64,000 bases of DNA from Rhodothermales bacterium (lineage in GTDB: Bacteria; Bacteroidota; Rhodothermia; Rhodothermales; Bin80). The stretch spans positions 3,280,727 through 3,344,726 of the forward strand of contig OZ242302.1 in assembly GCA_965208025.1 (NCBI GenBank), written 5' to 3'. A program made the position numbers and the translations under genes. Below the pieces are notes generated by a model, which was given only the letters and a program-made list of their open reading frames with translations, made no database searches and had not been told where the DNA came from. This document shows positions 11,559 through 53,021 of this stretch, in pieces; position 1 is the stretch's first letter; each line of letters opens with the position of its first letter.

Positions 11559-11579
11559 CAGATGGGTTGCAGGAGATGA

Positions 11580-31818: not shown

Positions 31819-31994
31819 GGTATTCAGCTAAGAATTTTCCTGACGGTGAACCATGGAACGGTTCGGATTGAATGGAGGAGCAATAACATTATGGGGAGAC
31901 GGACTGCTTCCCTTTCAAACTGAATATTGATTGATGAAGTAGTGAAAGTGACCTGTGTGCAACTGTCATCCCATGTAAAGGAATGATCATTCAT

Positions 31995-37669: not shown

Positions 37670-39396
37670 ACGACTTCGGCAATAGAGGCTTCTTTCTGGA
37701 TGCGCTCAATCATTCGATTCAGTCCATTTTTTCGACGTGCAGTAATCAGACTTGGGAGACCTACTTCGTGGATCAGGGCAGGAAGGTCAGTCATGAGAAT
37801 CGTTTGGGGAGATTGTCCATTGAATAGCTGGATGAGCAGAGCAATCATTCCACGTGTAATGAGTGCGTCGCTGTCTGCTTCAAAATAGATTCTACCCTCC
37901 CGGATCGTACTGTGAAGCCAGACCATGGCTAAACAGCCATGAATTCGGTTTGTCTCTGTCTTAAGTGAAGCATCCAGTTCGGGAAGATTTTCTCCAAGTT
38001 CAATTAAATACTCGCGACGTTCGTCGTCGTCTTCAAATAGATTCAGATCCTCCATCAACAACGATTTACGACGATCAATAGACACATCACGGGATAAGGG
38101 AAGACTAACTCCATTGGAAGATGTGGATGCAGATGTTCTGATTGACTTGGGATTCGCAGAAATTTCGTTGATCCTTTCCACAAGTGCGTCCACATCATCT
38201 GTGGTATTGTAGGCACCAAACGAGGCACGAACGGTGCCAGAAATACCAAAATATTTCATGAGAGGCATGGCGCAATGATGTCCTGTTCTCACCGCAATCC
38301 CGGCCTGATCCAGAGCATAGCCCACATCATAGGGATGATGCCCATCCAGAAGGAAACTTAGAACGCCAACTTTTTTTGGAGCGGTTCCGACAACCGTGAG
38401 GCTTGGTATGGTTGAAACGTTTTCGTGAGCATAATCAAGAAGTGCTTCCTCTCTACGGTGCAGAACATCCATTCCAATGTTGTCAAGATAGTCAATCGCC
38501 GCTGCCATTCCAATCACACCAGCGATATTTGGAGTACCAGCCTCAAATTTATGAGGAAGTTCAGCCCATGTAGAGGATGTACGGTGTACTTCCTCAATCA
38601 TGTCACCCCCTCCATGCCAAGGGGGTAGATCTTCAAGAATTTCTTCTTTTCCATAGAGGAAACCCACTCCCGTCGGCCCGTATGCCTTATGACTGCCAGC
38701 ACAATAGAAATCGCACTCCAGACTCTGCATATCCAAGGGAAGGTGGGGTAACCCCTGAGCACCATCCAACAGAACAGCAATGTCCCGTTTATGTGCCTCG
38801 TAAATGATCTCCTCCACTGGATGAAGCGTGCCCAAACTGTTGGAAACATGCCCAATAGCAATGAGACGAGTACGTTGATTTACATGCCTGAACAGTACAT
38901 CAACGCTGATGGTGCCAGTCATGGATACATCCACGACACGTAACTGCGCACCGCACTCTTTTGCCAAGGTTTGCCATGGGACAAGATTTGAGTGGTGCTC
39001 CATGACGGTTGTTAAAATCTCATCGCCGCGGTGAATGCGCTGGCGACCATAGGTCGCGGCAACCAAGTTGATGGCTTCGGTCGTTCCACGAGTGAAAATA
39101 ATGGATCGTTCACTCGGAGCTCCAATGAACTGGGCTAAGCGTTTTCGAGCAGCCTCATAGCGCTCAGTCGCATGCTGGCTAAGGTAGTGTACCCCCCGGT
39201 GTACGTTGCTGTGTTCGTTGGTATAGTAATTGGCTATACAGTCAATCACACACTGAGGCTTTAGCGATGAAGCTGCACTATCCAAATAGACCAACGGATG
39301 GTCGTGCACTCGCTGACGCAGGGTTGGAAAGTCAGCCCTGATCTGGTGATCATCAATTTCGGTTAGATCTAGCATTGCGTGGGCGTCCCACATCAA
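37666..39396 (-). CDS. sufS: Cysteine desulfurase SufS fused to a C-terminal SufE sulfur-acceptor domain
   Basis: The SufS part carries the PLP-Lys context 'CAGSHKAYGPTG' and 'RTGHHCAMPL' (catalytic Cys loop). After a Ser/Thr-rich linker comes a SufE-like domain with 'NRIHGCLAMVWL' (conserved Cys) and 'ITARRKNGL'. Confidence 0.9.
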   Translation of the reverse strand: MMWDAHAMLDLTEIDDHQIRADFPTLRQRVHDHPLVYLDSAASSLKPQCVIDCIANYYTNEHSNVHRGVHYLSQHATERYEAARKRLAQFIGAPSERSIIFTRGTTEAINLVAATYGRQRIHRGDEILTTVMEHHSNLVPWQTLAKECGAQLRVVDVSMTGTISVDVLFRHVNQRTRLIAIGHVSNSLGTLHPVEEIIYEAHKRDIAVLLDGAQGLPHLPLDMQSLECDFYCAGSHKAYGPTGVGFLYGKEEILEDLPPWHGGGDMIEEVHRTSSTWAELPHKFEAGTPNIAGVIGMAAAIDYLDNIGMDVLHRREEALLDYAHENVSTIPSLTVVGTAPKKVGVLSFLLDGHHPYDVGYALDQAGIAVRTGHHCAMPLMKYFGISGTVRASFGAYNTTDDVDALVERINEISANPKSIRTSASTSSNGVSLPLSRDVSIDRRKSLLMEDLNLFEDDDERREYLIELGENLPELDASLKTETNRIHGCLAMVWLHSTIREGRIYFEADSDALITRGMIALLIQLFNGQSPQTILMTDLPALIHEVGLPSLITARRKNGLNRMIERIQKEASIAEVV

Positions 39397-40679
39397 CGCA
39401 GCATTCGCTCCACATGATCGTAGAGCACTTCGCGCAGAGCGGAGACTGGTGCCTGTTCAATGATGTCGCCAGCAAATGAACTCAACATGAGCCGGCGTGC
39501 TTCATCCTCGGGAATTCCCCGAGAACGAAGGTAAAATAAGCCATCTTTGTCTAGCTGTCCAGTGGTTGCTCCGTGAGAGCACTTCACATCATCAGCGTAG
39601 ATCTCCAAGGCAGGCTTAGAAAACATTCGAGCGGTATCAGAAAGCAGGATACTTCGGTTGGTCTGGTAGGCATTGGTTAACTGTGCATCTTCACGCACGA
39701 GAACCTTTCCGTTAAATACCCCTGTTGCATAATCATCCAGGATTCCCTTGTAGTACTCTGAACTGTAACAATTTGGTTTGGCGTGATCAACTAGTGTGTT
39801 ACTATCAATGTGAGAACGCCCTCGCCCCATGAAGAGTCCGTGGAGCAGACTTTCACAGAACTCTGCATTGGGCAGGATTGAAACATTGTTCCGAACCAAT
39901 TCACCACCGAAAGTAAATATTCCACTATAAAATTTACTCTGGGCTTCTTGGTAGACGCTTAGATTGTTTATCCTGCTAACCTTGGGGGCACTGACCTGCA
40001 GGTCAATAAAATCGGTGTGCGCTCCATGTCCAACATAAATCTCTGTAACTGCATTGATCAGGGAAGAAACTGCACCAACAAATTCAGTTGATAGCAAGAC
40101 CTGTACAGAGGCTTCGTCTCCAGTATGGATCAAGATTCGGGGCTGAATCATGGCGGACTCATCACTTTTGATCACATGGAGGATATGGATTGGATGTTCC
40201 AGTTTTGAACCGGATGCAACCTTGATCACTGCACCATCCTTGAGGAAAGCAGTATTTAGGGCGGTAAAAGGCTCCTTGGCATAATCAGCATATTGGCCTA
40301 AGTGTTTCTGAACAAGATGATCACCTGCCACAGCAGAGAGGCTCTCAATGGATACCCCGGAGGGGAGGTGATCAAGTCGGGATTGGTCAGGAGCAAAGAT
40401 GCCGTTGATGAACACGACCACATGTGAATCAAACGCATTCAGTCCTCGGGCCTTGGCATGTGAGGTACCAACCAACTGGTAGGTGCGGTTGACCACTGGT
40501 GTCACATTTGTGTATTTCCAGGCCTCATCTTTACGTGTGGGGAAGCCTGTCTTGGCAAATTGGTCAATGGCCCGCTGGGAGAGTTCGGAAAGGGGGCCGA
40601 CGGTCCCATTAAGAGACTGGTAGCGTTGATAGACGGACAGAAAACGGTCTTCCACACGATGATCAATCAAGTTAGACAT
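39393..40679 (-). CDS. sufD: Fe-S cluster assembly protein SufD
   Basis: Position between sufC and sufS. C-terminal 'CSHGATTGQLD..LFYLRSRGI' is the SufB/D family motif. Confidence 0.85.
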   Translation of the reverse strand: MSNLIDHRVEDRFLSVYQRYQSLNGTVGPLSELSQRAIDQFAKTGFPTRKDEAWKYTNVTPVVNRTYQLVGTSHAKARGLNAFDSHVVVFINGIFAPDQSRLDHLPSGVSIESLSAVAGDHLVQKHLGQYADYAKEPFTALNTAFLKDGAVIKVASGSKLEHPIHILHVIKSDESAMIQPRILIHTGDEASVQVLLSTEFVGAVSSLINAVTEIYVGHGAHTDFIDLQVSAPKVSRINNLSVYQEAQSKFYSGIFTFGGELVRNNVSILPNAEFCESLLHGLFMGRGRSHIDSNTLVDHAKPNCYSSEYYKGILDDYATGVFNGKVLVREDAQLTNAYQTNRSILLSDTARMFSKPALEIYADDVKCSHGATTGQLDKDGLFYLRSRGIPEDEARRLMLSSFAGDIIEQAPVSALREVLYDHVERMLR

Positions 40680-40682
40680 TTT

Positions 40683-41444
40683 TCAGGCGGGTACTCCATT
40701 TTGAACCCAGTCATATCCGCGTTTTTCAAGCTCCAGGGCAAGCTCTTTTCCCCCAGATTGGACAATCCGACCGCTCACCATCACATGGACAAAATCGGGC
40801 ACTATATAATTGAGTAGACGCTGATAATGAGTAATGACCAGAAATCCGCGCTCGGGGGTACGCAATTGGTTTACACCACGAGCAACACTTCTAAGTGCAT
40901 CAATGTCAAGCCCTGAATCGGTCTCATCCAGGATTGCGAGCGTAGGTTCAAGCATAGCAAGCTGGAAGATCTCGTTACGTTTCTTTTCTCCACCCGAAAA
41001 ACCCTGATTCACTGAGCGCTGTTTCAGACGGGGATCCAGTTCAATCAATGCTGCTTTTTCTTTGGCAAGACGCAGTAGCGCCGCGGCGCCCAGTGCTTCC
41101 ATCCCCCTATGTTCGCGCACGGAGTTGACCGCTTGCTTGAGGAAGTTCATCGTGCTAACGCCCGGAAGTTCAATAGGATATTGAAAAGCAAGAAAGATTC
41201 CCTCACGGGCGCGTTCATCAACATCCATTTCCAGAAGATCCTCTCCTTGATAGTGAACGGATCCCTGATCAACTTCGTATTCTTCACGGCCAGCGAGGAT
41301 GGACGCCAGCGTACTTTTGCCTGATCCATTCGGTCCCATGATCGCATGAACCTCGCCGGCATTCACAGAGAGATCAACTCCTCTCAGAATAGGCACATTC
41401 TCAACGGAGGCCTCGAGGCCTCGGATTTCTAAAATAGGATTCAT
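40683..41444 (-). CDS. sufC: Fe-S cluster assembly ATPase SufC
   Basis: Walker A 'GPNGSGKST', 'FSGGEKKRNEI', Walker B 'LAILDETDSGLD', 'ITHYQRLL'. Confidence 0.95.
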   Translation of the reverse strand: MNPILEIRGLEASVENVPILRGVDLSVNAGEVHAIMGPNGSGKSTLASILAGREEYEVDQGSVHYQGEDLLEMDVDERAREGIFLAFQYPIELPGVSTMNFLKQAVNSVREHRGMEALGAAALLRLAKEKAALIELDPRLKQRSVNQGFSGGEKKRNEIFQLAMLEPTLAILDETDSGLDIDALRSVARGVNQLRTPERGFLVITHYQRLLNYIVPDFVHVMVSGRIVQSGGKELALELEKRGYDWVQNGVPA

Positions 41445-41488
41445 TCCTCGTTTTCTGACAAGTAATTATAGTCCGCGAAAAAAAAAGA

Positions 41489-42949
41489 TTATCCGACGGA
41501 ACCTTCAAGTTCAATGGCCAAAAGTTTTCTTGCCTCCACGGCAAACTCCATTGGCAGTTTGGTTAGAATTTCTTGGCAAAATCCACTTACCAAGAGTTTG
41601 ATTGCATCCTGCTCGCTAATTCCCCGCTGCTGACAATAGAACATCTGATCTTCTCCAACTTTGCTGGTCGTAGCTTCATGTTCTACCTGGGCGGAGGGGT
41701 TAAAAATTTCCAGATAGGGGAAGGTATGAGCTCCGCAACGATCGCCTAACAGCATGGAGTCACATTGGGCAAAATTCCTGGCATTCTCGGCCCCTTTGTT
41801 AATGCGAACCAATCCTCGATAGCTGTTATTTGATCGACCAGCTGAGATACCTTTGGAGATGATCGTGCTGGATGTATTACGCCCGAGGTGGAGCATTTTC
41901 GTTCCGGTATCGGCTTGCTGACGACCTTTTGTGAAGGCAACGGAATAAAATTCTCCAATTGAATGGTCCCCCTTGAGGATGACGCTTGGATATTTCCAAG
42001 TGATGGCAGACCCTGTCTCTAATTGAGTCCAGGAGATTTTGGAGCCAGCACCTTCACAGATTCCGCGTTTCGTCACAAAATTGAATACTCCCCCGGTGCC
42101 ATCTTCATTCCCGGGATACCAATTTTGGATGGTGGAATATTTCACTTCTGCATCTTTATGAGCAATAATCTCAACGACTGCGGCATGAAGCTGGTTTTCA
42201 TCCCGACGGGGAGCGGTACAACCTTCAAGATAAGAGACATAGGATCCCTCTTCGGCGACAATCAATGTGCGTTCAAACTGACCGGTCCCAGCCTGGTTGA
42301 TCCGAAAATAGGTTGATAATTCCATTGGGCAGCGAACGCCTGCGGGAATATAGCAGAATGATCCATCACTGAAGACCGCGGCATTGAGGGCAGCATAAAA
42401 GTTGTCTGTATATGGGACAACGGTGCCCATGTACTTCTGAACAAGATCTCCATGATGTTCAATTGCCTCGGTGAACGAACAGAAAATAATTCCGAGCTTA
42501 GCCAGCTCATCTTTAAAGGTAGTCGCAACAGAGACGCTATCTACGACGGCATCCACAGCCACGCCAGCGAGCACTTTCTGTTCTTCAAGAGGAATGCCAA
42601 GTGCCTCAAACGTTTTGATCAACTCAGGATCAACCTCATCTAGGCTTTCGTAGCGGGGTTGACTACCAGGGGCAGAGTAGTAACTGATATCCTGAAAATT
42701 AATTTCAGGATAGTTAAGGTGGGCCCAACGAGGATATTTATCCGTGTCAGAGGCCAATTTCTGCCAATGGCGAAACGCTTTCAGCCGACTTTTGAGCATC
42801 CAATCCGGATCCTGTTTTTTGGCGGAGATCAGACGGATCACCTCTTCATTCAATCCTTTTGGAATGGTATCGGAGACGATATCGGTTGACCACCCGTGCT
42901 CGTAGTCACTTTCGGCGACTTTATGAAGATATTGCGTGTCCGTATTCAT
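41489..42949 (-). CDS. sufB: Fe-S cluster assembly scaffold SufB
   Basis: Highly conserved SufB segments: '[23 protein letters not shown]', '[10 protein letters not shown]', '[21 protein letters not shown]'. Confidence 0.95.
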
Positions 42950-43081
42950 AGTAGGAAGACCAGTTCAGGAACTTTAGTGCGTACAACGACAAATCACCTG
43001 GGATTTGTCAGGTAAACCTTAGGATCCTTTCTTCGTTCCTAAAGACGTACCTTTTAAGATCTAATTCAACCCTAATTCACA

Positions 43082-43414
43082 ATGCTTTTGAAGATTACAA
43101 AGCGGGCGAATGAACAGATTCGTTCAGTCGCCACCGAAGAGCAGATTGACTTGGATAAAGCTTATGTACGCTTGGCGGTTGTTCAAGGAGGTTGCTCGGG
43201 GCTTACGTATGATTTAGGATGGGACACAGAAGTGAAGGAAGGGGATGTTCAACTGAATATGGATGGGCTGTCTATTGTTGTCGATCAGCGTAGTGGACTG
43301 TATCTGGATGGCACAGAACTGGATTTTACCGATGGATTAGAGGGAAAAGGATTTCATTTTTCGAATCCACAGGCTGCCCGAACCTGCGCATGTGGAGAAT
43401 CGTTCGGTTTATAG
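43082..43414 (+). CDS. HesB/IscA/SufA-family Fe-S cluster insertion protein
   Basis: 'GGCSGLTYDL' and C-terminal 'CACGESF' (Cx..CxC cluster ligands). Divergent from sufB. Confidence 0.9.
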   Translation: MLLKITKRANEQIRSVATEEQIDLDKAYVRLAVVQGGCSGLTYDLGWDTEVKEGDVQLNMDGLSIVVDQRSGLYLDGTELDFTDGLEGKGFHFSNPQAARTCACGESFGL

Positions 43415-43506
43415 CATTCTAACACTAGTAAGTAGCGATTTGATCGTATTTTTTGAACCGGATTCGCTCAACTATGTGATCCACGGAGTCACAATATTGC
43501 ATAATC

Positions 43507-44214
43507 ATGACGGTATTTGTTAATGGAGTGAGTTATCCCATTGATCCAGGCTTAATCAGTGGAGCCGTGCTGCATGAACTTGCTGGCCCGAATCTTCTGT
43601 ATAGTGTTGATGGTACAGTCATTCCTGTATTTTCAGAAGATTATCTACTTGTCCGTGGAGGGGAGAGGTTTATCCTTGAGAAAGGTAAAATCAAAGACAG
43701 TCCCTCTCTTCAGGATCCACTGAAGCCGAGTTTCAACGACGCCCAAGATGTTGCCCTGATCACCCCCAAAATAATTGCAAAAGATCTGAAGGCTTATGAT
43801 CCTGAATTTCCAGACGGTCGTTTATTTGCGGAAATATCCAAGGACCTAGATGTAGAAATCGGTGACGATCTACGACTCATTGTTCAGGCTAGTGATTCTT
43901 ATTTCGTCATTCCTCCAGGAGATTTTGGGGGAGTCATTGACATTGAAAAATGCGGAAGTCATGGTCGCAAAGTTCCCAAAGGTGGAATTTATCTGTATCG
44001 GCTTGACCATGGCTACCATAGATCAGAAGATCAGAAGATTAGAGGCACAGACATCTTGGCTCAGGCAGGCAAAAAAATTGAGGAGTGGTCTCTAAATCTG
44101 AAACTTAGCGGTGGCACGCGGATCAAGATTGATGAAGATTGGATTGATCTCACAAAATTAGGAAGTGAGCGGTTTGAATCCGTTCGTCGTCATGCGCAGC
44201 AGGGGGGTGAATGA
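43507..44214 (+). CDS. Poly-beta-grasp ubiquitin-like protein (Multiubiquitin-type), three tandem Ubl units, C-terminus ...QQGG-E
   Basis: Three internally similar ~60-80-aa units with anchors 'LISGAVLHELAG', 'ITPKIIAKDLKA' and 'IRGTDILAQAG'. Each is followed by an acidic 'D..(I/L/V)..' strand. Unit 2 ends 'GDFGG' and the protein ends 'HAQQGGE*'. Confidence 0.6.
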   Translation: MTVFVNGVSYPIDPGLISGAVLHELAGPNLLYSVDGTVIPVFSEDYLLVRGGERFILEKGKIKDSPSLQDPLKPSFNDAQDVALITPKIIAKDLKAYDPEFPDGRLFAEISKDLDVEIGDDLRLIVQASDSYFVIPPGDFGGVIDIEKCGSHGRKVPKGGIYLYRLDHGYHRSEDQKIRGTDILAQAGKKIEEWSLNLKLSGGTRIKIDEDWIDLTKLGSERFESVRRHAQQGGE

Positions 44215-44593
44215 TTTGATTGAACTCCCACCTGAAGATTCAGAGTACTTAGACGGTAACTATGAAAACCAATGGCGGATTATTTCTGACGGGGGTGCGA
44301 AGAGTGCATTATTAATAGAGAGTTTCCCCATTCCAAGTGGTTATGATCTTAGGACAACAACCCTCATGATTTTGATTCCAAGCGGTTACCCCGGGACATC
44401 TCTTGATATGTTCTATTTCAATCCTCCCTTAGTGAGGTCAGATGGTGCAGAGATTCCCTCCCTTACCAAAGAGTCACATTTTGATATAACGTGGCAACGT
44501 TGGTCACGCCACTATACATGGGAACCTAGTCGGGACTCTCTCACAGGGCATGTTGAGTTTGTAAAACGAAAACTCCACGATGAACTCCGATGA
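44192..44593 (+). CDS. Prokaryotic E2/UBC-like protein (Prok-E2_E-like), cysteine-free
   Basis: 'LPPEDSEYL ... IPSGYPGTSLDMFYFNPPL.RSDG..IP ... WQRWSRHY.W' matches my recollection of the bacterial E2 family E pattern. Start is uncertain (ATG 44192 or GTG 44207), and either one overlaps the Ubl gene end. The whole ORF contains no Cys. Confidence 0.55.
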   Translation: MRSRGVNDLIELPPEDSEYLDGNYENQWRIISDGGAKSALLIESFPIPSGYDLRTTTLMILIPSGYPGTSLDMFYFNPPLVRSDGAEIPSLTKESHFDITWQRWSRHYTWEPSRDSLTGHVEFVKRKLHDELR

Positions 44594-45987
44594 CCTTGAC
44601 CACGAGGAAGCTAACTCTGACGGCATCTTCCCACCTCTCTCTTGTGGATTATCTGTTTCCTGGAGATGGGTTAGAGGCAGTTGCAATTCTTATCTGTAAC
44701 TTGGGGAAAGGCCGGCTTGGAGAGCATCTGATTGTCAAGGATATAGTTTTTCCACCCTATGAGAGGTGTGAACGGTATCCAGATAAAGTAATTTGGCCGT
44801 TTGCCGAAATCGTACCCCCTAGCCTAATCAGTACAATTGACCGCGAGGGACAGTCACTGATCACAATTCATTCACATCCTTCGGGTGATGCATTTTTTTC
44901 GGCAATAGACGATGAGAATGATTACCAATTAATCACGTCTATTGCGGGTTGGTTTGATGATGCAAGGCCACATGGGACAGCAGTGATGCGATCAGATGGA
45001 ATGATGATCGCACGTGTACTGGATGAATCAGGAGAATTTAGAAATATTGAAGTCGTGGGTGTCGTGGGCGAAGAAATACAATTCTGGAAACGATTCGTTG
45101 AATCTCCCGAAAGAACATCCGAACTTAGGATTAAGCAGACATTTGGACAGGGAACGCTTGAGATGCTGAAGGGGATGCTGGTTGGAGTCGTGGGTTGTTC
45201 TGGCACTGGAAGCATAATGATTGAACTATTAGTTCGCAACGCGATCGGAGCGTTGGTCATCGTTGATGATGACTCCTTAGATGAATTAAATCTAAATCGG
45301 ATAATCAACGGTACATCTGAGGATGCACGATTGGGACGACCAAAGGTGCGAGCATTAGAAGAGGCAATTGAGCGGATTGGACTCGGAACGAATGTCTGTG
45401 CCTTTGAGGGACGCACGGATTCTGCTTCTGTTGTCAGGGCTTTGATTGATTGTGATGTGATCTTTGGGTGTATGGACACTGCCTTTGGACGTTATCACTT
45501 GGATTGCATTGCAAGTGCGTACTTAATCCCCTACTTTGATTTGGGGGTAGATTTGGTCGCGGATGGAGAGGGAGGAATCCAATCAGCTGATGCTGTATCT
45601 CATTATGTCCATCCAGATGGGACTAGTTTACTTTCTCGTATGGCCTATACCATGGATCAAGTGACATCGGAGATGTGGCACAGGGATGATGTGGAGCATC
45701 ACGAACGCCAGTGGCGTGCGGGGTATCTTGCGGCAGTTGATGAAAATCATCCTGCCGTCATATCAGTGAACATGCAGGCAGCTTGTCTGGCATTCAATGA
45801 TTTTTTGGCTCGGATCTCAAATTTCCGGCTTGATTCGAATGGTGAATTCACGACTCAACGGTTTAGACTGGTTCATGGCTCATTTGAGAATGATACCGCA
45901 AAAGGGGAACCACATGATTTATTAAAACCATACGTAGCTTCTGGAGACAAAAGCCTACTCGTCAGAAACAATACTTCTTATGCATAG
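44590..45987 (+). CDS. JAB/JAMM deubiquitinase-like metalloprotease fused to a ThiF/E1-like adenylating enzyme
   Basis: JAMM motif 'HSHPSGDAFFSAID' (HxHx7Sx2D) with an upstream Glu ('GLEAVAIL'). E1 Rossmann 'VGVVGCSGTGSIMIELL...LVIVDDDSLDELNLNRI' and 'VIFGCMDTAFGRYHLD'. ATGA overlap with the E2-like gene. Confidence 0.8.
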   Translation: MTLTTRKLTLTASSHLSLVDYLFPGDGLEAVAILICNLGKGRLGEHLIVKDIVFPPYERCERYPDKVIWPFAEIVPPSLISTIDREGQSLITIHSHPSGDAFFSAIDDENDYQLITSIAGWFDDARPHGTAVMRSDGMMIARVLDESGEFRNIEVVGVVGEEIQFWKRFVESPERTSELRIKQTFGQGTLEMLKGMLVGVVGCSGTGSIMIELLVRNAIGALVIVDDDSLDELNLNRIINGTSEDARLGRPKVRALEEAIERIGLGTNVCAFEGRTDSASVVRALIDCDVIFGCMDTAFGRYHLDCIASAYLIPYFDLGVDLVADGEGGIQSADAVSHYVHPDGTSLLSRMAYTMDQVTSEMWHRDDVEHHERQWRAGYLAAVDENHPAVISVNMQAACLAFNDFLARISNFRLDSNGEFTTQRFRLVHGSFENDTAKGEPHDLLKPYVASGDKSLLVRNNTSYA

Positions 45988-46341
45988 GTTGCCAGATTCT
46001 TTTTGGGTATCCTGTCTCAATTGCATCCTTACCAGACCGAGTACATTCAAGATTTACATCTATATGTTAAACTCAATACGATCTGTATCATCGGAGAACA
46101 TGCCCTCCTCATTGTATTCAGCAATTGTCTGTCCGATGTATCGAAGTAAGAAAGTTGTCCATTTAGATTTATCTGTTGTAAGTACCACTGGAAGATCACA
46201 GAGATTCCAATGGCCGTGTATCACTTCTGCCATCAGTGCGTGGATCCGAATTGAAATGCAATTACCAGTATAGATTCCGATGTGGATATTGTATTGTCTG
46301 TATCAAACCGCCCATGTTTTAAGTTTCCAAGGTGAACCGAT

Positions 46342-47949
46342 ATGATTGAGCGAATAGAAATACGCAATGTCATGCGTTTCCGTGAGTTGAACTGCGAACT
46401 GGAGAAGCATCTTCTAATTGTTGGACCAAATAATTGTGGCAAGACGACGCTTCTCCAAGTGATCGCACTATGGTCAGAAATTGCAGCATACTGGTCGAGA
46501 AACAATCCCGATTTAGCTAGAGACAGCAATGGTGATTATTCGAGCACTGCATTGAATTTATTGAGAACATCCTCAATTCTTTTATCTGACTGGAATCATT
46601 TATGGTATGATAAAAATGTTACATCTCCAGCCTCAATCCGACTACAAATTGCAGGTAGACGACTTGGTTTTGAGTTGATCTATAAGGGGCGGGAAATTGT
46701 AGATGTTCGACCAACTTCGGATGTATTGGAGTCCGTTCTGGAATGGTATCTTGACAATCCTATCATCCCAGTTTACATTCCATCAATGTCAGGAGTGGAT
46801 AGGGAAGAACCTAACTATGATCCTGGGGTCATTCCAGCAAGACTCTCAAGAGGACAGGCTGGGACGGTGCTCCGAAATATTCTTTTGGATGTCAGCACCG
46901 ACTCCGATAGATGGCAACAGCTAAGCAATGTTGTATCCGATCTTTTCGGGAGCGAGTTGATGATGCCAAGTGGAGGCGCCGAGATATTTGCAGAGTATCG
47001 GGAGAGTCCTTCAAAATTAGGCTTAGACTATTGCAGTGGTGGTTCCGGGTTTCTTCAGATCGTAATGATATATGCGACCATTTTCTGGAGAACACAATCT
47101 GTGATTCTAATTGATGAGCCAGACGCTCATCTACACTTGTTCTTACAAGACAGACTCTATGGTGATCTCAAGCGACGCGCCAAACACCATGGATGGCAGT
47201 TGATCATTGCAACTCATTCGCAGCAACTCATTAATCAGGCTACTACCAGTGATATAAGGATATTATCAAATGATCTGAACAGGATATCAGATCGCAGAGT
47301 CGTTGCAGAGTCATTGCGATTGGACAATATAGATTTACTGCTCGCTCAGAAATCAAAATGTGTTTTATATCTGGAGGGATGGACAGATAAGGAAATATTA
47401 TGGAAGTGGGCACAGATTCTGGGCCACCCAATCTTGCAACATTTGGATAAACTTCTCTATAAATTCACTGCAGAGGAAAGCCGCCGTTCTACGCGACATT
47501 TTGGGGCAGTACAAGCTCATGTTCCTGCATTGAAAGGGGTTGAGTTATTGGATAGGAACAATAAAGGCACCAGTGCGGATTCTAAATCGTATCCTGAGGG
47601 CATGAAGCTTTTAGTTTGGAGTCGGTATGAGATAGAAAATTATCTAATCCATCCTGCTGCAATACTTCGGTGGCTCACCTCAAGAGGTGGGAAGGATGCA
47701 GCTGACAGGGCCAATCATTACATGAAAAACTATTTTCCACCGGCTCTACATTTGAATCCATTGGAGATGGATTTTCATGAGGGTGTCAAGGGGAAGCAGG
47801 TAATTGACAGAATTGTTGATGCTGCACAAATTCAAATTGATAGGTCAGAGTACGCTGAGATTGCAGGCGGGATGCTGAAAGAAGAGATTCATTCAGAAGT
47901 GATTGAGAAGCTAGACCTGATATTCGATCATTTGAATCTTGTAAACTAG
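46342..47949 (+). CDS. ABC-type (AAA_15/21-like) ATPase fused to a DUF4435/Toprim-like domain. PARIS-like (fused AriA-AriB) or OLD-family defence nuclease candidate
   Basis: Walker A 'GPNNCGKTT', signature-like 'CSGGSGFLQI', Walker B 'VILIDEPDAHLH', H-loop 'IIATHS'. C-terminal 'CVLYLEGWTDKEIL' and 'SRYEIENYLIHP' resemble DUF4435/Toprim motifs. Confidence 0.65.
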   Translation: MIERIEIRNVMRFRELNCELEKHLLIVGPNNCGKTTLLQVIALWSEIAAYWSRNNPDLARDSNGDYSSTALNLLRTSSILLSDWNHLWYDKNVTSPASIRLQIAGRRLGFELIYKGREIVDVRPTSDVLESVLEWYLDNPIIPVYIPSMSGVDREEPNYDPGVIPARLSRGQAGTVLRNILLDVSTDSDRWQQLSNVVSDLFGSELMMPSGGAEIFAEYRESPSKLGLDYCSGGSGFLQIVMIYATIFWRTQSVILIDEPDAHLHLFLQDRLYGDLKRRAKHHGWQLIIATHSQQLINQATTSDIRILSNDLNRISDRRVVAESLRLDNIDLLLAQKSKCVLYLEGWTDKEILWKWAQILGHPILQHLDKLLYKFTAEESRRSTRHFGAVQAHVPALKGVELLDRNNKGTSADSKSYPEGMKLLVWSRYEIENYLIHPAAILRWLTSRGGKDAADRANHYMKNYFPPALHLNPLEMDFHEGVKGKQVIDRIVDAAQIQIDRSEYAEIAGGMLKEEIHSEVIEKLDLIFDHLNLVN

Positions 47950-48049
47950 ACCAGAGAACTGTGTCTAAAGGAATAGGATTACGGGTTAATTTGAACCACA
48001 TGATGCGATCCCCTCGGGGATATACTTCATCCCAAGGGGATTCGATCGT

Positions 48050-48535
48050 CTATTGACGGATCCAACTCACTCGGTCTCCTACTACGATTCCCTTTGTATC
48101 TGCGAAGCCACCGGGGACTTCCAATACATACTGCGCTGGGGCGCTACTTACAATCGAATCATCAGAGAACGGTTTCGCATACTTCGCAATATCTACGATG
48201 ACCGAGTCTCTGGAGATAAACAGGATATCCAAGGACAGCGGCGTGTTGCCCATCCAGAATTGGCGAATTTCTTGTTGACCGAATAAAAATAGCATCCCTG
48301 ATTCTGGGGGGAAAGAGGTTCGTTGCATCATTCCCCGCTCCCGAAGGGAGTCGGTATCCGCAATCTCAATATCAAGCGTTAGGATGGATTCATCCATCCG
48401 CACAAAATCAAGTGTCCCGTCAACTCGAAATGGAATCTCAATTTCCGAAGGAGTCGGATCTGGAGATTCGGTTGAGTTCTGACAAGAAGTTGCCAGAAGG
48501 GTGAGAACGAGAAAAAGGGCGAAGCGATAGTTCAT
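48050..48535 (-). CDS. DUF192 domain-containing protein (secreted/lipoprotein)
   Basis: 'RERGMMQR....SGMLFLF......FWMGNTPLSLDILFI........YVLEVPGG' is the DUF192 pattern. N-terminal signal 'LLATSC'. Confidence 0.8.
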   Translation of the reverse strand: MNYRFALFLVLTLLATSCQNSTESPDPTPSEIEIPFRVDGTLDFVRMDESILTLDIEIADTDSLRERGMMQRTSFPPESGMLFLFGQQEIRQFWMGNTPLSLDILFISRDSVIVDIAKYAKPFSDDSIVSSAPAQYVLEVPGGFADTKGIVVGDRVSWIRQ

Positions 48536-48536
48536 G

Positions 48537-48992
48537 CTACGAATCTGTTTTAGTCCATTGAATAGAGGCAGTGGTATCTATTCCATACCTGTCGCTGAAT
48601 CCTCCACGAACTTCAACGACATATTGAGCCAGATCTGTGGAGCGTATATATTCCCTGGAAAGGGGGGTTGTACGCTTGGCAATGTTGACAATTCCTGAAT
48701 CTGCATCTACAAAAATGATGTCAAGAGGGATGGGGGTATTTGCCATCCAGAAACTCAATGAATCAGGTTCAGGGAACACAAACAACATCCCCTGACTGAG
48801 AGGGAGTTGACGCCGCTCCATTAACCCTTTGGCCCGGGTTTCGTCATTCTCCGCAAACTCAATATCAATCGTGGTGACAATTTCTCCACTACTACTAAGA
48901 AAGTTTAATTTCCCAATGGGGAGTTCATCAGGTTCACCTGAACACCCCATCAGTATCATCAGAGCGCTAATGAGTAGGAAACTACGTATCAT
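48537..48992 (-). CDS. DUF192 domain-containing protein (tandem paralogue)
   Basis: 'RAKGLMERRQLPLSQGMLFVF....FWMANTPIPLDIIFV....YVVEVRGG'. Signal/lipobox 'ILMGCS'. 1-nt spacer to the downstream paralogue. Confidence 0.8.
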   Translation of the reverse strand: MIRSFLLISALMILMGCSGEPDELPIGKLNFLSSSGEIVTTIDIEFAENDETRAKGLMERRQLPLSQGMLFVFPEPDSLSFWMANTPIPLDIIFVDADSGIVNIAKRTTPLSREYIRSTDLAQYVVEVRGGFSDRYGIDTTASIQWTKTDS

Positions 48993-49038
48993 GGACTAGA
49001 AGGCTATCTCGTTTTCAACCAGATGATGAATTGCTGGT

Positions 49039-50223
49039 TCAGTCAGGCCATAACTGTGCAATGATACGGTCACAAACCTGCATCCCCCCCGTGGTGAGAC
49101 ATATCTGGTTCCCAGTCTGATTGATTAGGCCGTTTGATTGCAGAGTTGCAATTTCTTCGTACTTCTCTTTGGATAAATTGAAGCCATATCTCGTCTTTAC
49201 TTCTTCCATGTTCAGTCCATCGGATGTGCGGAGTGCCAGCATGATTTTTTCGCGGATTAAATCCGATTCTGAGAGCGTTTTCTCATGAATCTTGGCGGAT
49301 TGGCCAGATGTGAGCAATTCACAATAGGTACGAAGATTGCGGATATTCTCCCATCGTATGGTCTTGCCATCCTGCCACCAGAATGAATGTGCACTGGGAC
49401 CTATCCCAATGTAGTTCACATGATTCCAGTATCGGGTATTATGTTTGGCGCGATGTCCAGCACGGGCAAAATTTGAAATTTCGTAGTGTTCAAAGCCGTA
49501 GGAATTCAAGCATTTAATTGCCATAAGGAATTGATCTGCTGTTTCTTCATCCGATACAGGTTGGACGATACCTCTCTTGACTTGGTTCTGCAGGGGGGTG
49601 TTTGGTTCAATTGTTAAGCCATAGGTGGAGATATGTGGAACACCAGTTGCAGCAGCATGATGTAAATTCTGTTCCCAACCATGTAAAGAACTTTCTGGCA
49701 AACCAAAAATCAGGTCCAGAGACCAACTCACAAATCCGGAGGAACGAATCAAGTGGCATGCTTGAATTGCTTGATCTGAGGTATGGCTACGATTCATGAA
49801 TTGTAGATCCTCATCACAAAAAGACTGTACTCCGAGGCTAATTCGAGTGATCCCTATTTCTAACATTTGATCTATTCCCTCCGTTGTAATGTCCTCGGGA
49901 TTTGCTTCCAGAGTCATTTCTTGGACTTGAGATGTCTGAAAGCTTGAATGAATCTGAACTATAATTTGATGGATTAGCTTGGGATCCAGACGTGAGGGAG
50001 TGCCCCCACCAAAGTAGATTGAACGTAAAGACGTATTGGGAAAATGGTGAGCTACTTCAATAATTTCCCTACAAAGCGCGTCTACAAACTGATTTTGAAT
50101 GCTCTGGTTGGTGACGAAGTAAAAGTCACAGTACGAGCAACGCTGAGTACAGAATGGAATATGAATATACAGAGAGGCCTTTGGTTGAGAACGATCCATA
50201 CCGTCAACTGAATTTGTAGTCAC
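49039..50223 (-). CDS. hemW: Radical SAM heme chaperone HemW (HemN-like, coproporphyrinogen oxidase family)
   Basis: 'LYIHIPFCTQRCSYCDFY' (CxxxCxxC), 'FGGGTPS', length ~390 aa, HemN_C-like tail. Confidence 0.85.
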   Translation of the reverse strand: MTTNSVDGMDRSQPKASLYIHIPFCTQRCSYCDFYFVTNQSIQNQFVDALCREIIEVAHHFPNTSLRSIYFGGGTPSRLDPKLIHQIIVQIHSSFQTSQVQEMTLEANPEDITTEGIDQMLEIGITRISLGVQSFCDEDLQFMNRSHTSDQAIQACHLIRSSGFVSWSLDLIFGLPESSLHGWEQNLHHAAATGVPHISTYGLTIEPNTPLQNQVKRGIVQPVSDEETADQFLMAIKCLNSYGFEHYEISNFARAGHRAKHNTRYWNHVNYIGIGPSAHSFWWQDGKTIRWENIRNLRTYCELLTSGQSAKIHEKTLSESDLIREKIMLALRTSDGLNMEEVKTRYGFNLSKEKYEEIATLQSNGLINQTGNQICLTTGGMQVCDRIIAQLWPD

Positions 50224-51129: not shown

Positions 51130-52968
51130 ATGATGGGATCGTACGATGAAAATCAAACAGAATCCGTTAATGGTGGATCTATCACGATCACCGAGAACAA
51201 ACTACTGGATATTCTTAAGAAGAATGCTCCAGAGGCATTCACCGAGGATAAGATTGATTGGGAAAAATTTCGAGCTACCTTAGGTGGTAACGTTGAATTC
51301 AGTGAGGAACGCTACCATCTAAATTGGGCTGGCAAAGCCAATGTATTTCGTATGCTTCAAAGGCCTACCAATGCTACTCTTAGACCATGTCGAGAAGAAT
51401 CAATCAAATTTGACACTAGTAGCAATTTATTTATTGAGGGCGAGAATTTGGAAGTGCTTAAAATTCTCCAGAAGCCATATTTCGGTAAAGTCAAGATGAT
51501 CTATATTGATCCGCCCTATAACACTGGGAACGACCAATTTATTTATCCAGACAGCTTTGCTGAGAATAAAAATGCTTATCTAAAACACATCGGTAAAAAG
51601 GATGAACAAGGACATAGTATCCGAGAGGGGATATTCCAAAAAAACAATCGGGAGAATGGCCATTTTCACTCCAATTGGCTCAGCATGATATACCCACGAC
51701 TTTACATGGCCAGAAATCTCCTGCGAGATGATGGAGTGATTTTTGTCTCCATTGACGACAATGAAGTTCATAATTTGCGTCTTGTGATGAATGAAATTTT
51801 TGGGGAGGATAATTTTATCGCATGCTTCGCTTGGAGGAGAACAGACAATCAGTCAAATATTGGAAATGTAGCCAGAATCAAGGAATATATTTTGTGCTAT
51901 GCCAAAGTTGGTTCTTCTCTTCGTTTGAACAAAATGAAATTATCTGAGAGAGCACGGAAAGAGTATAGATATTCTGATGATAAAGGCAAATATAGAAGAT
52001 CAATTCTCCATCATAAAACAAGAGGTCGGTTCCACTATCAAGTCGTTGCCCCAAATGGAAATACAGTAAATGGTCCATGGATGGTTGACGAATCCGAATT
52101 CAAAAAACTCTTAAATAATGATGGGATCCATTGGGCAGGGAAAGGACATCAACACCCTTATGGGAAAATCTATCTTAAAGAGTCTAAGGGTCAAATTACG
52201 AGCGACTTTTTAGGCCTTGAGTTTGGATCTAATCAGCAAGGAAGTATTGAATTGGAGAGGTTATTTGGTGCAAGATATTTCGATTTTCCAAAACCGGTAA
52301 GTTTGGTCAAACATTTTATAACTATTGGAACGAATGACGATGATATAGTGATGGATTTCTTTGCTGGGTCATGCACCACTGCCCATGCAGTCCTTCAACT
52401 CAACTCTGAGGAAAAGGCTAATCGTAGATTTATTTGTATCCAAATGCCAGAATTATGTGACGGTGGATCCAGAGCTGGAAAAGAAGCCCTGAAAGCATGC
52501 TTCAATACTATTGCTGATATAGGGAAAGAACGTATTCGTAAGGTTCTAATTAATTCTGATCTTCGAGACGGGTTCAAAGTTTTCACACTTCAAAAATCCA
52601 ACTTCAAAACATGGCGAGGTGAGGATATACGCACGCAACAAGATCTTGAAAAACAACTTGAAATCCATATCACGCCACTTATTGAAAATGCGGATACTGA
52701 GCATGTCCTCTATGAGTTATTACTCAAATCGGGCTTGCCTTTGACTTCCAAAATTGAAGACAGGGGCAAGTGGTTTAAGGCCGAGTATCTTAACACTCTC
52801 ATTGCTTTTGCTTTGAACGACATTGATGAGGTTATAGTTAATGAGGTCGTTGCAGAAAGCCCACAAAAATTTATTGCTCTGGATCATTTATTCCAGAATA
52901 ATGATCAACTCAAAACCAATACTTCCTTGCGGATGGAAGATTCTGGAATAGAGTTTGAGACAGTTTGA
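51130..52968 (+). CDS. mod: Type III restriction-modification methyltransferase (Mod, beta-class N6A/N4C MTase)
   Basis: Motif IV 'IYIDPPYNTGND' precedes motif I 'DFFAGSCTTAHA'. The N-terminal 'YHLNWAGK' and 'LFIEGENLEVLK' are typical of Mod. It lies directly upstream of res. Confidence 0.9.
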   Translation: MMGSYDENQTESVNGGSITITENKLLDILKKNAPEAFTEDKIDWEKFRATLGGNVEFSEERYHLNWAGKANVFRMLQRPTNATLRPCREESIKFDTSSNLFIEGENLEVLKILQKPYFGKVKMIYIDPPYNTGNDQFIYPDSFAENKNAYLKHIGKKDEQGHSIREGIFQKNNRENGHFHSNWLSMIYPRLYMARNLLRDDGVIFVSIDDNEVHNLRLVMNEIFGEDNFIACFAWRRTDNQSNIGNVARIKEYILCYAKVGSSLRLNKMKLSERARKEYRYSDDKGKYRRSILHHKTRGRFHYQVVAPNGNTVNGPWMVDESEFKKLLNNDGIHWAGKGHQHPYGKIYLKESKGQITSDFLGLEFGSNQQGSIELERLFGARYFDFPKPVSLVKHFITIGTNDDDIVMDFFAGSCTTAHAVLQLNSEEKANRRFICIQMPELCDGGSRAGKEALKACFNTIADIGKERIRKVLINSDLRDGFKVFTLQKSNFKTWRGEDIRTQQDLEKQLEIHITPLIENADTEHVLYELLLKSGLPLTSKIEDRGKWFKAEYLNTLIAFALNDIDEVIVNEVVAESPQKFIALDHLFQNNDQLKTNTSLRMEDSGIEFETV

Positions 52969-53021
52969 TCAGATCAATGACGCTCTTTATGAGCTCTTGT
53001 TTTCCTTGAACCAGACGACTA

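What the first reader, a model, noticed from the sequence alone, without database searches (positions are those of the whole stretch)
43507..45987. Compact three-gene ubiquitin-like conjugation operon (poly-Ubl / E2-like / JAB-E1 fusion) in a defence neighbourhood
Three genes are packed with overlapping stop and start codons. The E2-like start (44192 or 44207) overlaps the Ubl stop at 44214, and there is an ATGA overlap at 44590-44593. Gene 1 is a triple beta-grasp protein ending in GG plus one residue. Gene 2 is a small E2/UBC-like protein. Gene 3 fuses a complete JAMM motif (HSHPSGDAFFSAID) to a ThiF/E1 Rossmann domain (GCSGTGS...VDDD...NLNR). This matches the Multiubiquitin + Prok-E2_E + JAB/E1 gene-neighbourhood class predicted by comparative genomics. 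To my knowledge, that class has not been characterised experimentally, unlike CBASS Cap2/Cap3 or the four-gene Bil (ISG15-like) systems. It sits next to a PARIS/OLD-like ATPase-nuclease and near two R-M systems and IS elements, so an anti-phage or conflict role is a reasonable hypothesis. This is the best candidate in the window for a novel system.
Basis: partly seen in the sequence, partly recalled or inferred. Interest (0 to 1): 0.85.

Follow-up and report, generated by a model that had tools for sequence, protein, structure and literature searches.

The report
Bub ubiquitin-like operon with ATPase partner
This is a bacterial ubiquitin-like protein-tagging operon of a kind already characterised biochemically (Type I Bub), but in a subgroup that always carries a PARIS/OLD-like ATPase-nuclease gene behind it, and here its de-tagging protease gene (bubE) has decayed; that partner gene may be a clue to what these operons do.

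Summary
The three overlapping genes are real: a triple beta-grasp Ubl ending QQGGE, a Prok-E2_E protein and a JAB-ThiF/E1 fusion. They are a Type I Bub (formerly 6E.1) operon. This class is no longer uncharacterised: crystal structures and in vitro conjugation exist (Ye et al., Gong et al.). All catalytic residues map onto Citrobacter BubCD/BubB, including the E1 crossover tyrosine and the cysteine-free Ser/His/Asp E2 site, so conjugation should run through oxyester intermediates. (1) 45980-46346 is a frameshifted pseudogene of bubE, the DUF6527 protease reported in all Bub operons. (2) The "neighbouring" ATPase (46342-47949) is a conserved partner. It lies directly downstream in all 9 Bub-retrieved loci whose JAB-E1 is at least 56% identical. 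It overlaps intact bubE by 8 nt and co-diverges with the E1 (rho 0.94). It is absent from about 40 more distant Bub loci and from 93 plasmid copies. Its C-terminus is distantly AriB/Toprim-like. bubE was lost independently at least twice in this subclade, while the other genes stay under purifying selection. Separate Ubl and E2 genes are common and not novel. Verdict: a new variant of a known system. Functional coupling to the ATPase is inferred, not shown.

The parts
43507..44214 (+). bubA: Ubl3 (three beta-grasp domains), 235 aa. Invariant QQG (G233) is followed by two extra residues (G234, E235) that the JAB domain would presumably trim.
   Evidence: ORF. AF2 model pLDDT 91, strands and helices in three repeats. 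Foldseek top hits are solved multi-ubiquitin proteins 9d5a, 9cd2, 8u38 and 9ea8_B. Q232 and G233 are invariant in 25 homologues.
44202..44207 (+). G6 homopolymer at the Ubl/E2 junction. G6 (window) and G7 (L001) give split genes. G5 or G8 would give a 361/362-aa BubAB-type fusion.
   Evidence: Sequence; in silico slippage.
44207..44593 (+). bubB: cysteine-free E2 (Prok-E2_E), 128 aa from GTG 44207. Putative catalytic residues are D67, S100 and H102 (Citrobacter D299, S333, H335).
   Evidence: Pfam 2.3e-29. PDB BubB 1.9e-21, with LDMFY and WSRH aligned. Zero Cys. Start inferred from L001-L003 junctions.
44590..45987 (+). bubCD: JAB/JAMM peptidase fused to an E1 adenylation domain, 465 aa. Key residues are E29, H94, H96, D107 (JAMM), R237 (adenylation) and Y379 (crossover-loop tyrosine). 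No Cys in the loop (350-388).
   Evidence: Pfam. PDB Citrobacter BubCD 5e-71, with residue-by-residue alignment. Residue check. These positions are invariant in 26 homologues.
45980..46346 (+). bubE (DUF6527 serine protease) pseudogene. Homologous pieces lie in three frames and there is an in-frame stop. The CxCHYW motif has become CNYQYR, so a zinc Cys and the catalytic His are lost. The original bubE-stop/ATPase-start junction ATGATTGA is retained.
   Evidence: Six-frame comparison with intact bubE of L003, L038, L040 and L041. tblastn fragments in two frames, E 2e-6. Intact L003 ORF is DUF6527 at 3.6e-14, while the window fragments have no Pfam hit. Junction.
46342..47949 (+). Partner gene: OLD/PARIS-like ABC ATPase (Walker A G28-T35, Walker B D258/E259, H-loop T291-S293) fused to a distant AriB/DUF4435-type Toprim-like domain (E345/D349, E401/D404, E430/E432).
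   Evidence: Pfam AAA_21 and AAA_15. PADLOC AriAB 2e-22. AF2 pLDDT 90. Foldseek top hit is the Thermus OLD nuclease 6p74, then PtuA, GajA and retron effectors. The C-terminal domain hits AriAB in 13 of 15 family members. Invariant residues.

Best explanation
Window 43507-47949 is one operon-like module: a Type I Bub (bacterial ubiquitination-like, formerly 6E.1) conjugation system of a particular subclade. It consists of bubA (Ubl3), bubB (E2), bubCD (JAB-E1), a dead bubE, and a co-inherited PARIS/OLD-like ABC-ATPase/Toprim gene. The mechanism is inferred from Citrobacter Bub biochemistry and conserved residues. First, the JAB domain (E29/H94/H96/D107) trims the two residues after Gly233. Second, the E1 domain adenylates the Gly carboxylate (R237) and takes it onto Tyr379 of the crossover loop as an oxyester. 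Third, the Ubl passes to Ser100 of the cysteine-free E2 (helped by His102 and Asp67) and then to lysines of unknown targets. Because bubE is a pseudogene, conjugates are not removed by the usual BubE protease. The downstream ATPase-Toprim protein is most likely the nuclease-type effector or sensor arm that works with, or is controlled by, the conjugation arm in anti-phage or stress defence. Shown here: homology, residue conservation, gene order, co-occurrence, co-divergence and purifying selection. Inferred: enzymatic activity, any functional coupling with the ATPase, and the defence role.
For: Family assignment: Pfam, PDB BubCD 5e-71 and BubB 2e-21, and Ubl3 fold. All residues shown to be essential in Citrobacter are conserved. 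Partner gene: it is directly downstream in all 9 distinct loci retrieved through Bub proteins with JAB-E1 at least 56% identical (window, L001, L002, L003, L038, L040, L041, L043, L044). It is also next to Bub genes in 4 of 6 loci retrieved through the ATPase itself (L067, L069, L071, L072). These loci lie in unrelated genomic contexts. Intact bubE overlaps the ATPase start by 8 nt in 8 of the 9 loci where bubE is intact (26 nt in L043), and E1 and ATPase identities co-vary with Spearman rho 0.94. Of the 120 best ATPase homologues, 31 share an exact contig length with listed Bub hits. No ATPase homologue was found in about 40 loci with JAB-E1 at 52% identity or less, nor in plasmids that hold 93 BubCD homologues. 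dN/dS against L001 is Ubl 0.22, E2 0.12, E1 0.13 and ATPase 0.20. Neighbourhoods are defence islands, with Thoeris, GmrSD, R-M, TA, CapH/CapP-like regulators and integrases.
Against: No Bub operon has yet been shown to protect against phage. The ATPase also occurs alone: in L068 it sits in the same suf...DUF192...hemN slot as the window, and in L070 elsewhere. Canonical Bub operons lack it, so each arm may be autonomous. bubE, reported in all Bub operons, is dead here. In relative L002 the ATPase is split by an IS, which could mean the locus is eroding. The Toprim assignment rests on weak hits (best 1e-5) and a whole-chain Foldseek match with low TM (0.33). The co-divergence statistic uses phylogenetically non-independent loci (n=10).
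Confidence: 0.7

Rival explanations
1. Two independent defence systems that merely travel together: a Bub operon and an autonomous single-gene PARIS/OLD-like ATPase-nuclease. They are co-transcribed for convenience but have no biochemical cross-talk.
For: The ATPase is found without Bub genes in L068 and L070. Canonical Bub operons and all 93 plasmid copies lack it. Fused AriAB-type proteins are known as self-contained systems (PADLOC AriAB model). Defence genes cluster in islands generally.
Against: Strict adjacency in 9 of 9 Bub-retrieved loci of the subclade, across different contexts and phyla. A conserved 8-nt overlap with bubE. Co-divergence with rho 0.94. Retention of the ATPase flush against the E1 after bubE deletion in L069.
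Confidence: 0.3
2. The locus is a decaying, non-functional remnant of a five-gene system, and loss of bubE is the first step of erosion.
For: The bubE pseudogene has three frame changes, a stop and lost catalytic His. L002 has no recognisable bubE and an ISL3-interrupted ATPase. L068 keeps only the ATPase in the same slot. L061 and L062 hold only a 3' fragment of the E1.
Against: The four remaining ORFs are intact, with every catalytic residue. dN/dS is 0.12-0.22 against L001, and 0.15 for the Ubl against L002. An independent, clean bubE deletion in L069 left all other genes intact, whereas sister locus L072 keeps bubE. This suggests bubE-less forms are viable variants.
Confidence: 0.15
3. A ThiF/MoeB-type sulfur-carrier activation system linked to the adjacent suf Fe-S cluster operon.
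For: The locus abuts sufA-like, sufB, sufC, sufD and sufS-sufE in the window, L001 and L002. NCBIfam's top hits for the E1 are ThiF and MoeB models.
Against: NCBIfam scores are far below cutoffs (63 against 159 bits). suf adjacency is confined to this Rhodothermales lineage, and 10 other loci of the subclade lie in defence or mobile contexts. An E2, a JAB domain and a three-domain Ubl are present. There is no rhodanese domain and no Cys in the crossover loop. dS shows the Bub block has a different history from the suf genes.
Confidence: 0.02
4. The split Ubl/E2 is an artefact: a sequencing error or inactivating frameshift in a G-run of a BubAB fusion gene.
For: The junction is a G6 homopolymer, and removing one G restores a 361-aa fusion that aligns end to end with about 370-aa BubAB proteins.
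Against: Relatives with quite different junction sequences are also split at the same place: QQG** + ATG in L002, QQGL* + ATGA in L003, G7 in L001, and L040-L042, L067, L069 and L072. Stand-alone E2 genes are the majority among about 57 loci and were described in 2006 and 2016. A GTG start overlaps the stop.
Confidence: 0.03

Closest known systems
Type I Bub operon (formerly 6E.1; Citrobacter sp. RHBSTW-00271 BubAB-BubCD-BubE; Ye et al. bioRxiv 10.1101/2024.11.21.623953, NSMB 2026; Gong et al. 10.1101/2024.11.21.623966)
   Same: Ubl3 with a terminal conserved Gly. Cysteine-free E2 with Asp/Ser/His. JAB-E1 fusion with JAMM residues, an adenylation Arg and a crossover-loop Tyr. Gene order Ubl, E2, JAB-E1, bubE. 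Residence in defence islands.
   Different: JAB-E1 is only about 40% identical to Citrobacter's. The Ubl and E2 are separate, overlapping genes. bubE is a pseudogene. An OLD/PARIS-like ATPase-Toprim gene is appended and conserved throughout this subclade. No CapW, CapH/P or CapK/S regulator lies upstream in the window.
PARIS (AriA ABC ATPase + AriB DUF4435/Toprim nuclease, including fused AriAB forms)
   Same: ABC-type ATPase with Walker A/B, signature and H-loop, followed by a domain with EGxxD...ExENY-like motifs. The PADLOC AriAB model is the best hit for the whole protein (2e-22) and for the C-terminal domain in 13 of 15 relatives.
   Different: Scores are low and partial. There is no Pfam DUF4435 hit and no PDB sequence hit for the C-terminal domain. 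It is embedded in a ubiquitin-like conjugation operon rather than standing alone or in a P4-type hotspot.
OLD-family nucleases, Gabija GajA, and Septu/retron PtuA
   Same: Best structural matches of the AF2 model are Thermus OLD 6p74 (E 8e-12, over the whole length), PtuA, GajA and retron Eco8. They share the AAA_15/AAA_21 ATPase core.
   Different: Whole-chain TM is only 0.3-0.4. There is no partner helicase (GajB) or HNH protein (PtuB). NCBIfam PtuA scores 49 bits against a cutoff of 500.
Bil (BilABCD, ISG15-like) and Type II CBASS Cap2/Cap3
   Same: Bacterial Ubl/E1/E2/JAB machinery in defence islands. In CBASS the conjugation machinery regulates a defence enzyme, a possible analogy for Bub plus ATPase.
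   Different: Bil and Cap2 use catalytic cysteines. The Bil E1 has IAD-AAD-CYS domains, and Cap2 is an E2-E1 fusion without a Ubl. Here there is no Cys, the E1 is a minimal homodimer-type E1 fused to JAB, and PADLOC Cap2 (E1-E2) hits are weak and restricted to the Rossmann core.

Membership tests
Type I Bub (6E.1) | Ubl with beta-grasp domain(s) ending in a conserved Gly | tested here: met
   Three beta-grasp domains in the AF2 model, with Foldseek hits to solved Ubl3 proteins. QQG is invariant in 25 homologues.
Type I Bub (6E.1) | Ubl encoded as a fusion to the E2 (BubAB), as stated for all Type I operons by Ye et al. | tested here: not met
   Separate overlapping ORFs. However, stand-alone E2 genes are the majority in about 57 related loci, and the split layout is in the 2006 and 2016 descriptions. 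The feature is therefore not truly defining.
Type I Bub (6E.1) | Prok-E2_E E2 with an invariant Ser plus His and Asp, and no catalytic Cys | tested here: met
   Pfam 2.3e-29. D67, S100 and H102 align to Citrobacter D299, S333 and H335. Zero Cys.
Type I Bub (6E.1) | JAB/JAMM-E1 fusion with JAMM Glu/His/His/Asp, an adenylation Arg, an invariant crossover-loop Tyr and no loop Cys | tested here: met
   E29, H94, H96, D107, R237 and Y379. These are invariant across 26 homologues.
Type I Bub (6E.1) | bubE (DUF6527/PF20137 serine protease) present | tested here: not met
   Only a frameshifted remnant with lost His and Cys at 45980-46346. It is intact in relatives L003, L038-L044, L067, L071 and L072.
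Type I Bub (6E.1) | ATP-dependent Ubl conjugation through Tyr and Ser oxyester intermediates | not testable with these tools
   Requires biochemistry. Only residue conservation is shown.
PARIS (AriA/AriB or fused AriAB) | AriA-type ABC ATPase | tested here: inconclusive
   PADLOC AriAB 2e-22 and AriA 2e-18, but as partial stretches with similar scores for NsnB, PtuA, GajA and Old. PDB AriA 1.7e-7.
PARIS (AriA/AriB or fused AriAB) | AriB DUF4435/Toprim nuclease domain | tested here: inconclusive
   The C-terminal domain hits AriAB in 13 of 15 members (best 1e-5) and AriB in 6 of 15. There is no Pfam or PDB sequence hit. Acidic residues are invariant.
OLD family nuclease | ABC ATPase + Toprim architecture | tested here: inconclusive
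   The top Foldseek hit is 6p74 over 600 aligned columns, but TM is 0.33. The PDB profile hit to 6p74 (4e-12) covers ATPase motifs only.
Bil (BilABCD) | Cys-dependent E2, and E1 with IAD-AAD-CYS domains | tested here: not met
   The E2 has no Cys. The E1 has a single adenylation domain with a Tyr loop. There are no PADLOC Bil hits.
ThiF/MoeB sulfur-carrier activation | Scores above curated cutoffs for ThiF/MoeB equivalogs, and a biosynthetic context conserved among homologues | tested here: not met
   Best NCBIfam score is 63 bits against a cutoff of 159. suf adjacency is limited to one lineage.

The most novel reading that the evidence does not exclude
The appended PARIS/OLD-like ATPase-Toprim protein is the missing effector or sensor arm of a Bub pathway. 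Ubl3 conjugation (or Ubl3 filament binding) by the Tyr/Ser-oxyester E1-E2 cascade licenses or restrains a Toprim nuclease. BubE normally resets the switch, and bubE-less variants such as this window and L069 are permanently primed forms. This would give Bub operons, whose biological role is still unknown, their first effector logic, analogous to Cap2/Cap3 control of CD-NTases in Type II CBASS.
Probability: 0.3. Interest if true: 0.75.

Novelty: new variant of a known kind. Interest (0 to 1): 0.5.

Why it matters
Bub operons are numerous: 544 were catalogued by the Corbett lab, and about 1,700 JAB-E1 homologues were found here. They are mechanistically unusual because they conjugate without cysteines. 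Yet as of mid-2026 no Bub operon has a demonstrated phenotype, target or effector. A large subclade, which includes the best 120 JAB-E1 clusters (all at least 56% identical), appears to carry a translationally coupled nuclease-type ATPase. This offers a concrete and testable handle on function. It suggests which operons to clone: the complete CapH/P-bubA-bubB-bubCD-bubE-ATPase version in L072, against the natural bubE-less versions. It names an obvious candidate read-out (nuclease or abortive-infection activity) and a natural experiment on BubE dispensability. There are also practical points. bubE is systematically missed by gene callers because it overlaps both neighbours. In addition, 'BubAB fusion' is not a reliable defining feature of Type I Bub.

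Tried and rejected
- PADLOC and NCBIfam have no Bub models, so they gave no direct call.
- phmmer of the Ubl against PDB found nothing. The fold search was needed instead.
- Pfam, a PDB profile search, and single-sequence Pfam scans of the ATPase C-terminal domain found nothing. Only PADLOC AriAB/AriB gave weak, consistent hits.
- The sigma-70 promoter and terminator scan of 42900-48200 was at or below shuffle expectation and is uninformative.
- My first automatic split/fused classification from tblastn frames was unreliable for distant loci. I replaced it with an open-frame test.
- My first ORF filter missed intact bubE in L040-L042. Six-frame translation corrected this.
- No supplementary table of the Bub paper is held, and the published NSMB and Structure versions are not held. 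I could therefore not check whether the authors' operon table lists the ATPase.
- Considered and rejected: the sulfur-carrier reading, a sequencing-error frameshift, programmed frameshifting at the G-run (the frame relation differs between the window and L001, and other relatives have no G-run), and membership of Bil or CBASS.
Full report
**1. Observation**

- The Ubl is 43507-44214: 235 aa, ending RRHAQQGGE*.
- The E2-like ORF is in the +1 frame and overlaps the Ubl stop.
- The JAB-E1 is 44590-45987: 465 aa, with an ATGA overlap.

Pfam gives Prok-E2_E 2.3e-29, ThiF 1.3e-19 and Prok-JAB 6.8e-7. Multi_ubiq scores only 0.019, below its cutoff. The Ubl was therefore tested by structure. An AlphaFold2 model built on 25 homologues has pLDDT 91 and three beta-grasp repeats. 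Its best PDB matches are the solved Citrobacter, E. coli and M. brachiatum multi-ubiquitin proteins.

**2. What it is**

The class is not uncharacterised. The Multiubiquitin/E2_E/JAB-E1 neighbourhood (row 6e of Iyer et al. 2006) is now called Bub (bacterial ubiquitination-like). Type I Bub comprises BubAB, BubCD and BubE. The Corbett laboratory has:
- solved BubCD alone and bound to BubA and BubB;
- shown JAB cleavage after the conserved Gly;
- shown ATP-dependent conjugation that needs an E1 crossover-loop tyrosine and an E2 serine (oxyester intermediates);
- shown that BubE (DUF6527) is a Ser-His protease that removes conjugates.

The window's JAB-E1 hits Citrobacter BubCD at 5e-71, and the E2 hits BubB at 1.9e-21. 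Every functional residue is conserved.

| Role | Window | Citrobacter |
|---|---|---|
| JAMM site | E29 / H94 / H96 / D107 | E28 / H91 / H93 / D104 |
| Adenylation Arg | R237 | R227 |
| Crossover-loop Tyr | Y379 | Y370 |
| E2 triad | D67 / S100 / H102 | D299 / S333 / H335 |

The crossover loop has no Cys, and the E2 has no cysteine at all. These positions are invariant in 26 JAB-E1 homologues.

**3. The Ubl/E2 split**

[quoted passage not shown] Here the two are split at a G6 run (44202-44207). I searched with a conceptual fusion. Most hits were about 370-aa fusions at 45-51% identity. The closest relatives, however, are stand-alone Ubls of about 235-247 aa.

The junctions differ in sequence but always fall 0-2 residues after the invariant QQG:
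- QQG** + ATG in L002
- QQGL* + ATGA in L003
- QQGG* with a G7 run in L001, a Rhodothermales MAG that is 93-97% identical
- QQGGE* in the window

The frame relation between the Ubl and E2 even differs between the window (+1) and L001 (-1). This excludes programmed frameshifting and makes a sequencing artefact unlikely. In silico, G5 or G8 would produce a natural-looking fusion, QQG|VNDLIELPPED. Across about 57 related loci only 13 are fused. [quoted passage not shown] The split is therefore real, but ordinary.

**4. A dead bubE**

In L003, an uncalled 122-aa ORF between the E1 and the next gene is DUF6527 at 3.6e-14. Six-frame translation shows an intact bubE in L003 and L038-L042. It always overlaps the E1 stop and the next gene's start.

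In the window, and in L001, the homologous sequence is broken:
- it runs through three frames (f2, f1, f2, f0);
- it contains an in-frame stop;
- the motif C-x-C-H-Y-W has become C-N-Y-Q-Y-R, losing a zinc cysteine and the catalytic histidine.

L002 has no recognisable bubE. In L069 bubE was removed by a clean deletion that left its last eight codons (VPEANRHD*). Sister locus L072, at the same insertion site, keeps bubE. bubE has therefore been lost at least twice independently.

**5. The ATPase is a partner, not a bystander**

The 535-aa AAA_15/AAA_21 protein at 46342-47949 lies directly downstream of the Bub genes in all 9 distinct loci that were retrieved through Bub proteins and whose JAB-E1 is at least 56% identical to the window's. 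These are the window, L001, L002, L003, L038, L040, L041, L043 and L044. They include both fused and split forms, and their surroundings are unrelated.

Further observations:
- Of six loci retrieved through the ATPase itself, four carry the Bub genes (L067, L069, L071, L072). Two carry the ATPase alone: L068, in the very same suf...DUF192...hemN slot as the window, and L070.
- Of the 120 best ATPase homologues, 31 share an exact contig length with listed Bub hits.
- No homologue was found in about 40 loci with JAB-E1 at 52% identity or less and at least 1 kb of downstream sequence.
- None was found in PLSDB plasmids, which hold 93 BubCD homologues.
- Where bubE is intact, it overlaps the ATPase start by 8 nt (ATGATTGA) in 8 of the 9 such loci (26 nt in L043). 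The window retains this junction.
- E1 and ATPase identities to the window co-vary with Spearman rho 0.94, n=10, though the loci are not phylogenetically independent.

No accessible paper mentions such a partner.

**6. What the partner is**

It has intact Walker A, signature, Walker B and H-loop motifs. Its AlphaFold2 model (pLDDT 90) best matches the full-length Thermus OLD nuclease 6p74, followed by PtuA, GajA and retron effectors.

The C-terminal 220 residues have no Pfam or PDB sequence match. In 13 of 15 family members, however, they hit the PADLOC AriAB model (best 1e-5), and in 6 they hit AriB. The region carries invariant acidic residues in an EGxxD...ExxD...ExENY arrangement. I read it as a distant fused AriA-AriB-like (PARIS/OLD-type) ATPase-Toprim protein. 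The nuclease assignment is provisional.

**7. Is the locus alive?**

Against L001, dN/dS is 0.22 for the Ubl, 0.12 for the E2, 0.13 for the JAB-E1 and 0.20 for the ATPase. Against L002, the Ubl gives 0.15. All ORFs and catalytic residues are intact. Together with the L069/L072 pair, this argues that bubE-less forms are functional variants rather than wrecks.

Erosion elsewhere in the lineage keeps a decay scenario open at about 15%. The evidence for erosion is an IS in the L002 ATPase, the ATPase-only slot in L068, and the E1 fragments in L061 and L062.

**8. Sulfur-carrier rival**

suf adjacency is confined to the Rhodothermales lineage (window, L001, L002, L068). Other members sit among Thoeris, GmrSD, R-M, TA, CapH/CapP-like regulators, integrases and transposases. 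NCBIfam ThiF and MoeB scores are far below their cutoffs. The reading is rejected.

**9. Mechanism**

This is inferred from Citrobacter biochemistry plus conserved residues.
1. The JAB domain trims Gly234-Glu235.
2. The E1 adenylates Gly233.
3. The Ubl is transferred to Tyr379 as an oxyester.
4. It then passes to E2 Ser100.
5. It is finally attached to lysines of unknown targets.

With no BubE, there is no BubE-mediated reversal. The ATPase-Toprim protein probably acts as an effector or sensor arm. Whether it is regulated by, guards, or simply accompanies the conjugation arm is not shown.

**10. Verdict**

What is new relative to the accessible literature is a Bub subclade defined by a coupled PARIS/OLD-like ATPase-Toprim gene, together with recurrent loss of bubE. 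Bub operons still lack any known effector or phenotype, so this is a useful lead of moderate interest. I class it as a new variant of a known kind.

Noticed in passing
window 39393-50223, compared with L001: There is a sharp dS discontinuity between the window and the Rhodothermales MAG L001. sufB, sufC, sufD and the sufA-like gene have dS 0.6-0.96. The block from the Ubl to the hemN-like gene has dS 0.03-0.16. The boundary lies in the 92-nt intergenic region 43415-43506. This implies recent recombination or transfer of a block of about 6.7 kb between diverged genomes.
   Followed up: partly
L068:5506-8576: In another relative the same chromosomal slot (suf operon, sufA-like, then DUF192 x2, then hemN-like) holds only the ATPase (50% identical), 163 nt after the sufA-like gene, with no Bub genes. 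The slot behaves as a defence-gene hotspot with different alleles.
   Followed up: partly
L003:9358-9726; L038:8385-8747; L040-L042, L067 and L071 equivalents; L001:10549-10728 (-): bubE is systematically left uncalled by the gene callers because it overlaps both neighbours. It was called only in L072. In L001 a spurious minus-strand ORF was called over the pseudogene instead.
   Followed up: yes
L002:9697-12653: The partner ATPase of this relative is interrupted by an ISL3-family transposase (10472-11809). The two halves are 62% and 60% identical to the window protein.
   Followed up: yes
window 44202-44207: A G6 homopolymer sits at the Ubl/E2 junction, and L001 has G7. Single-base slippage would toggle between split (G6, G7) and fused (G5, G8) BubAB layouts. 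All of these look functional, which may explain why both layouts are frequent.
   Followed up: partly
window 51130-55292, 57119-59445, 60287-61117, 27561-29042: Other defence or mobile genes in the window are a Type III R-M (N6_N4_Mtase mod + ResIII res), IS21 istA/istB, a GmrSD_N Type IV restriction-like gene, and an Eco57I/MmeI-like methyltransferase 14.5 kb upstream.
   Followed up: partly
window 48050-48992 and 49039-50223 (-): Two tandem DUF192 paralogues and a HemN-like radical SAM gene are conserved downstream of the module in the window, L001, L002 and L068. Their relation to the module, if any, is unknown.
   Followed up: no
L061:5001-5279; L062:723-1001: Two metagenome contigs hold only the last 93 codons of a JAB-E1 gene (59% identical), with no bubE or ATPase after it. 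These are apparently remnants.
   Followed up: no
L038:4589-5793; L071:856-1829; L072:1043-1904; L041:3898-5010: HTH + Peptidase_M78 pairs or fusions (CapH/CapP-like regulators) sit immediately upstream of several ATPase-linked Bub operons. The window has none: its upstream neighbour is the sufA-like gene.
   Followed up: partly
window 31983-35390 (+): A 1135-aa protein combines a subtilase S8 domain, leucine-rich repeats, an Ig-like domain and a T9SS C-terminal sorting domain. It is unrelated to the finding.
   Followed up: no
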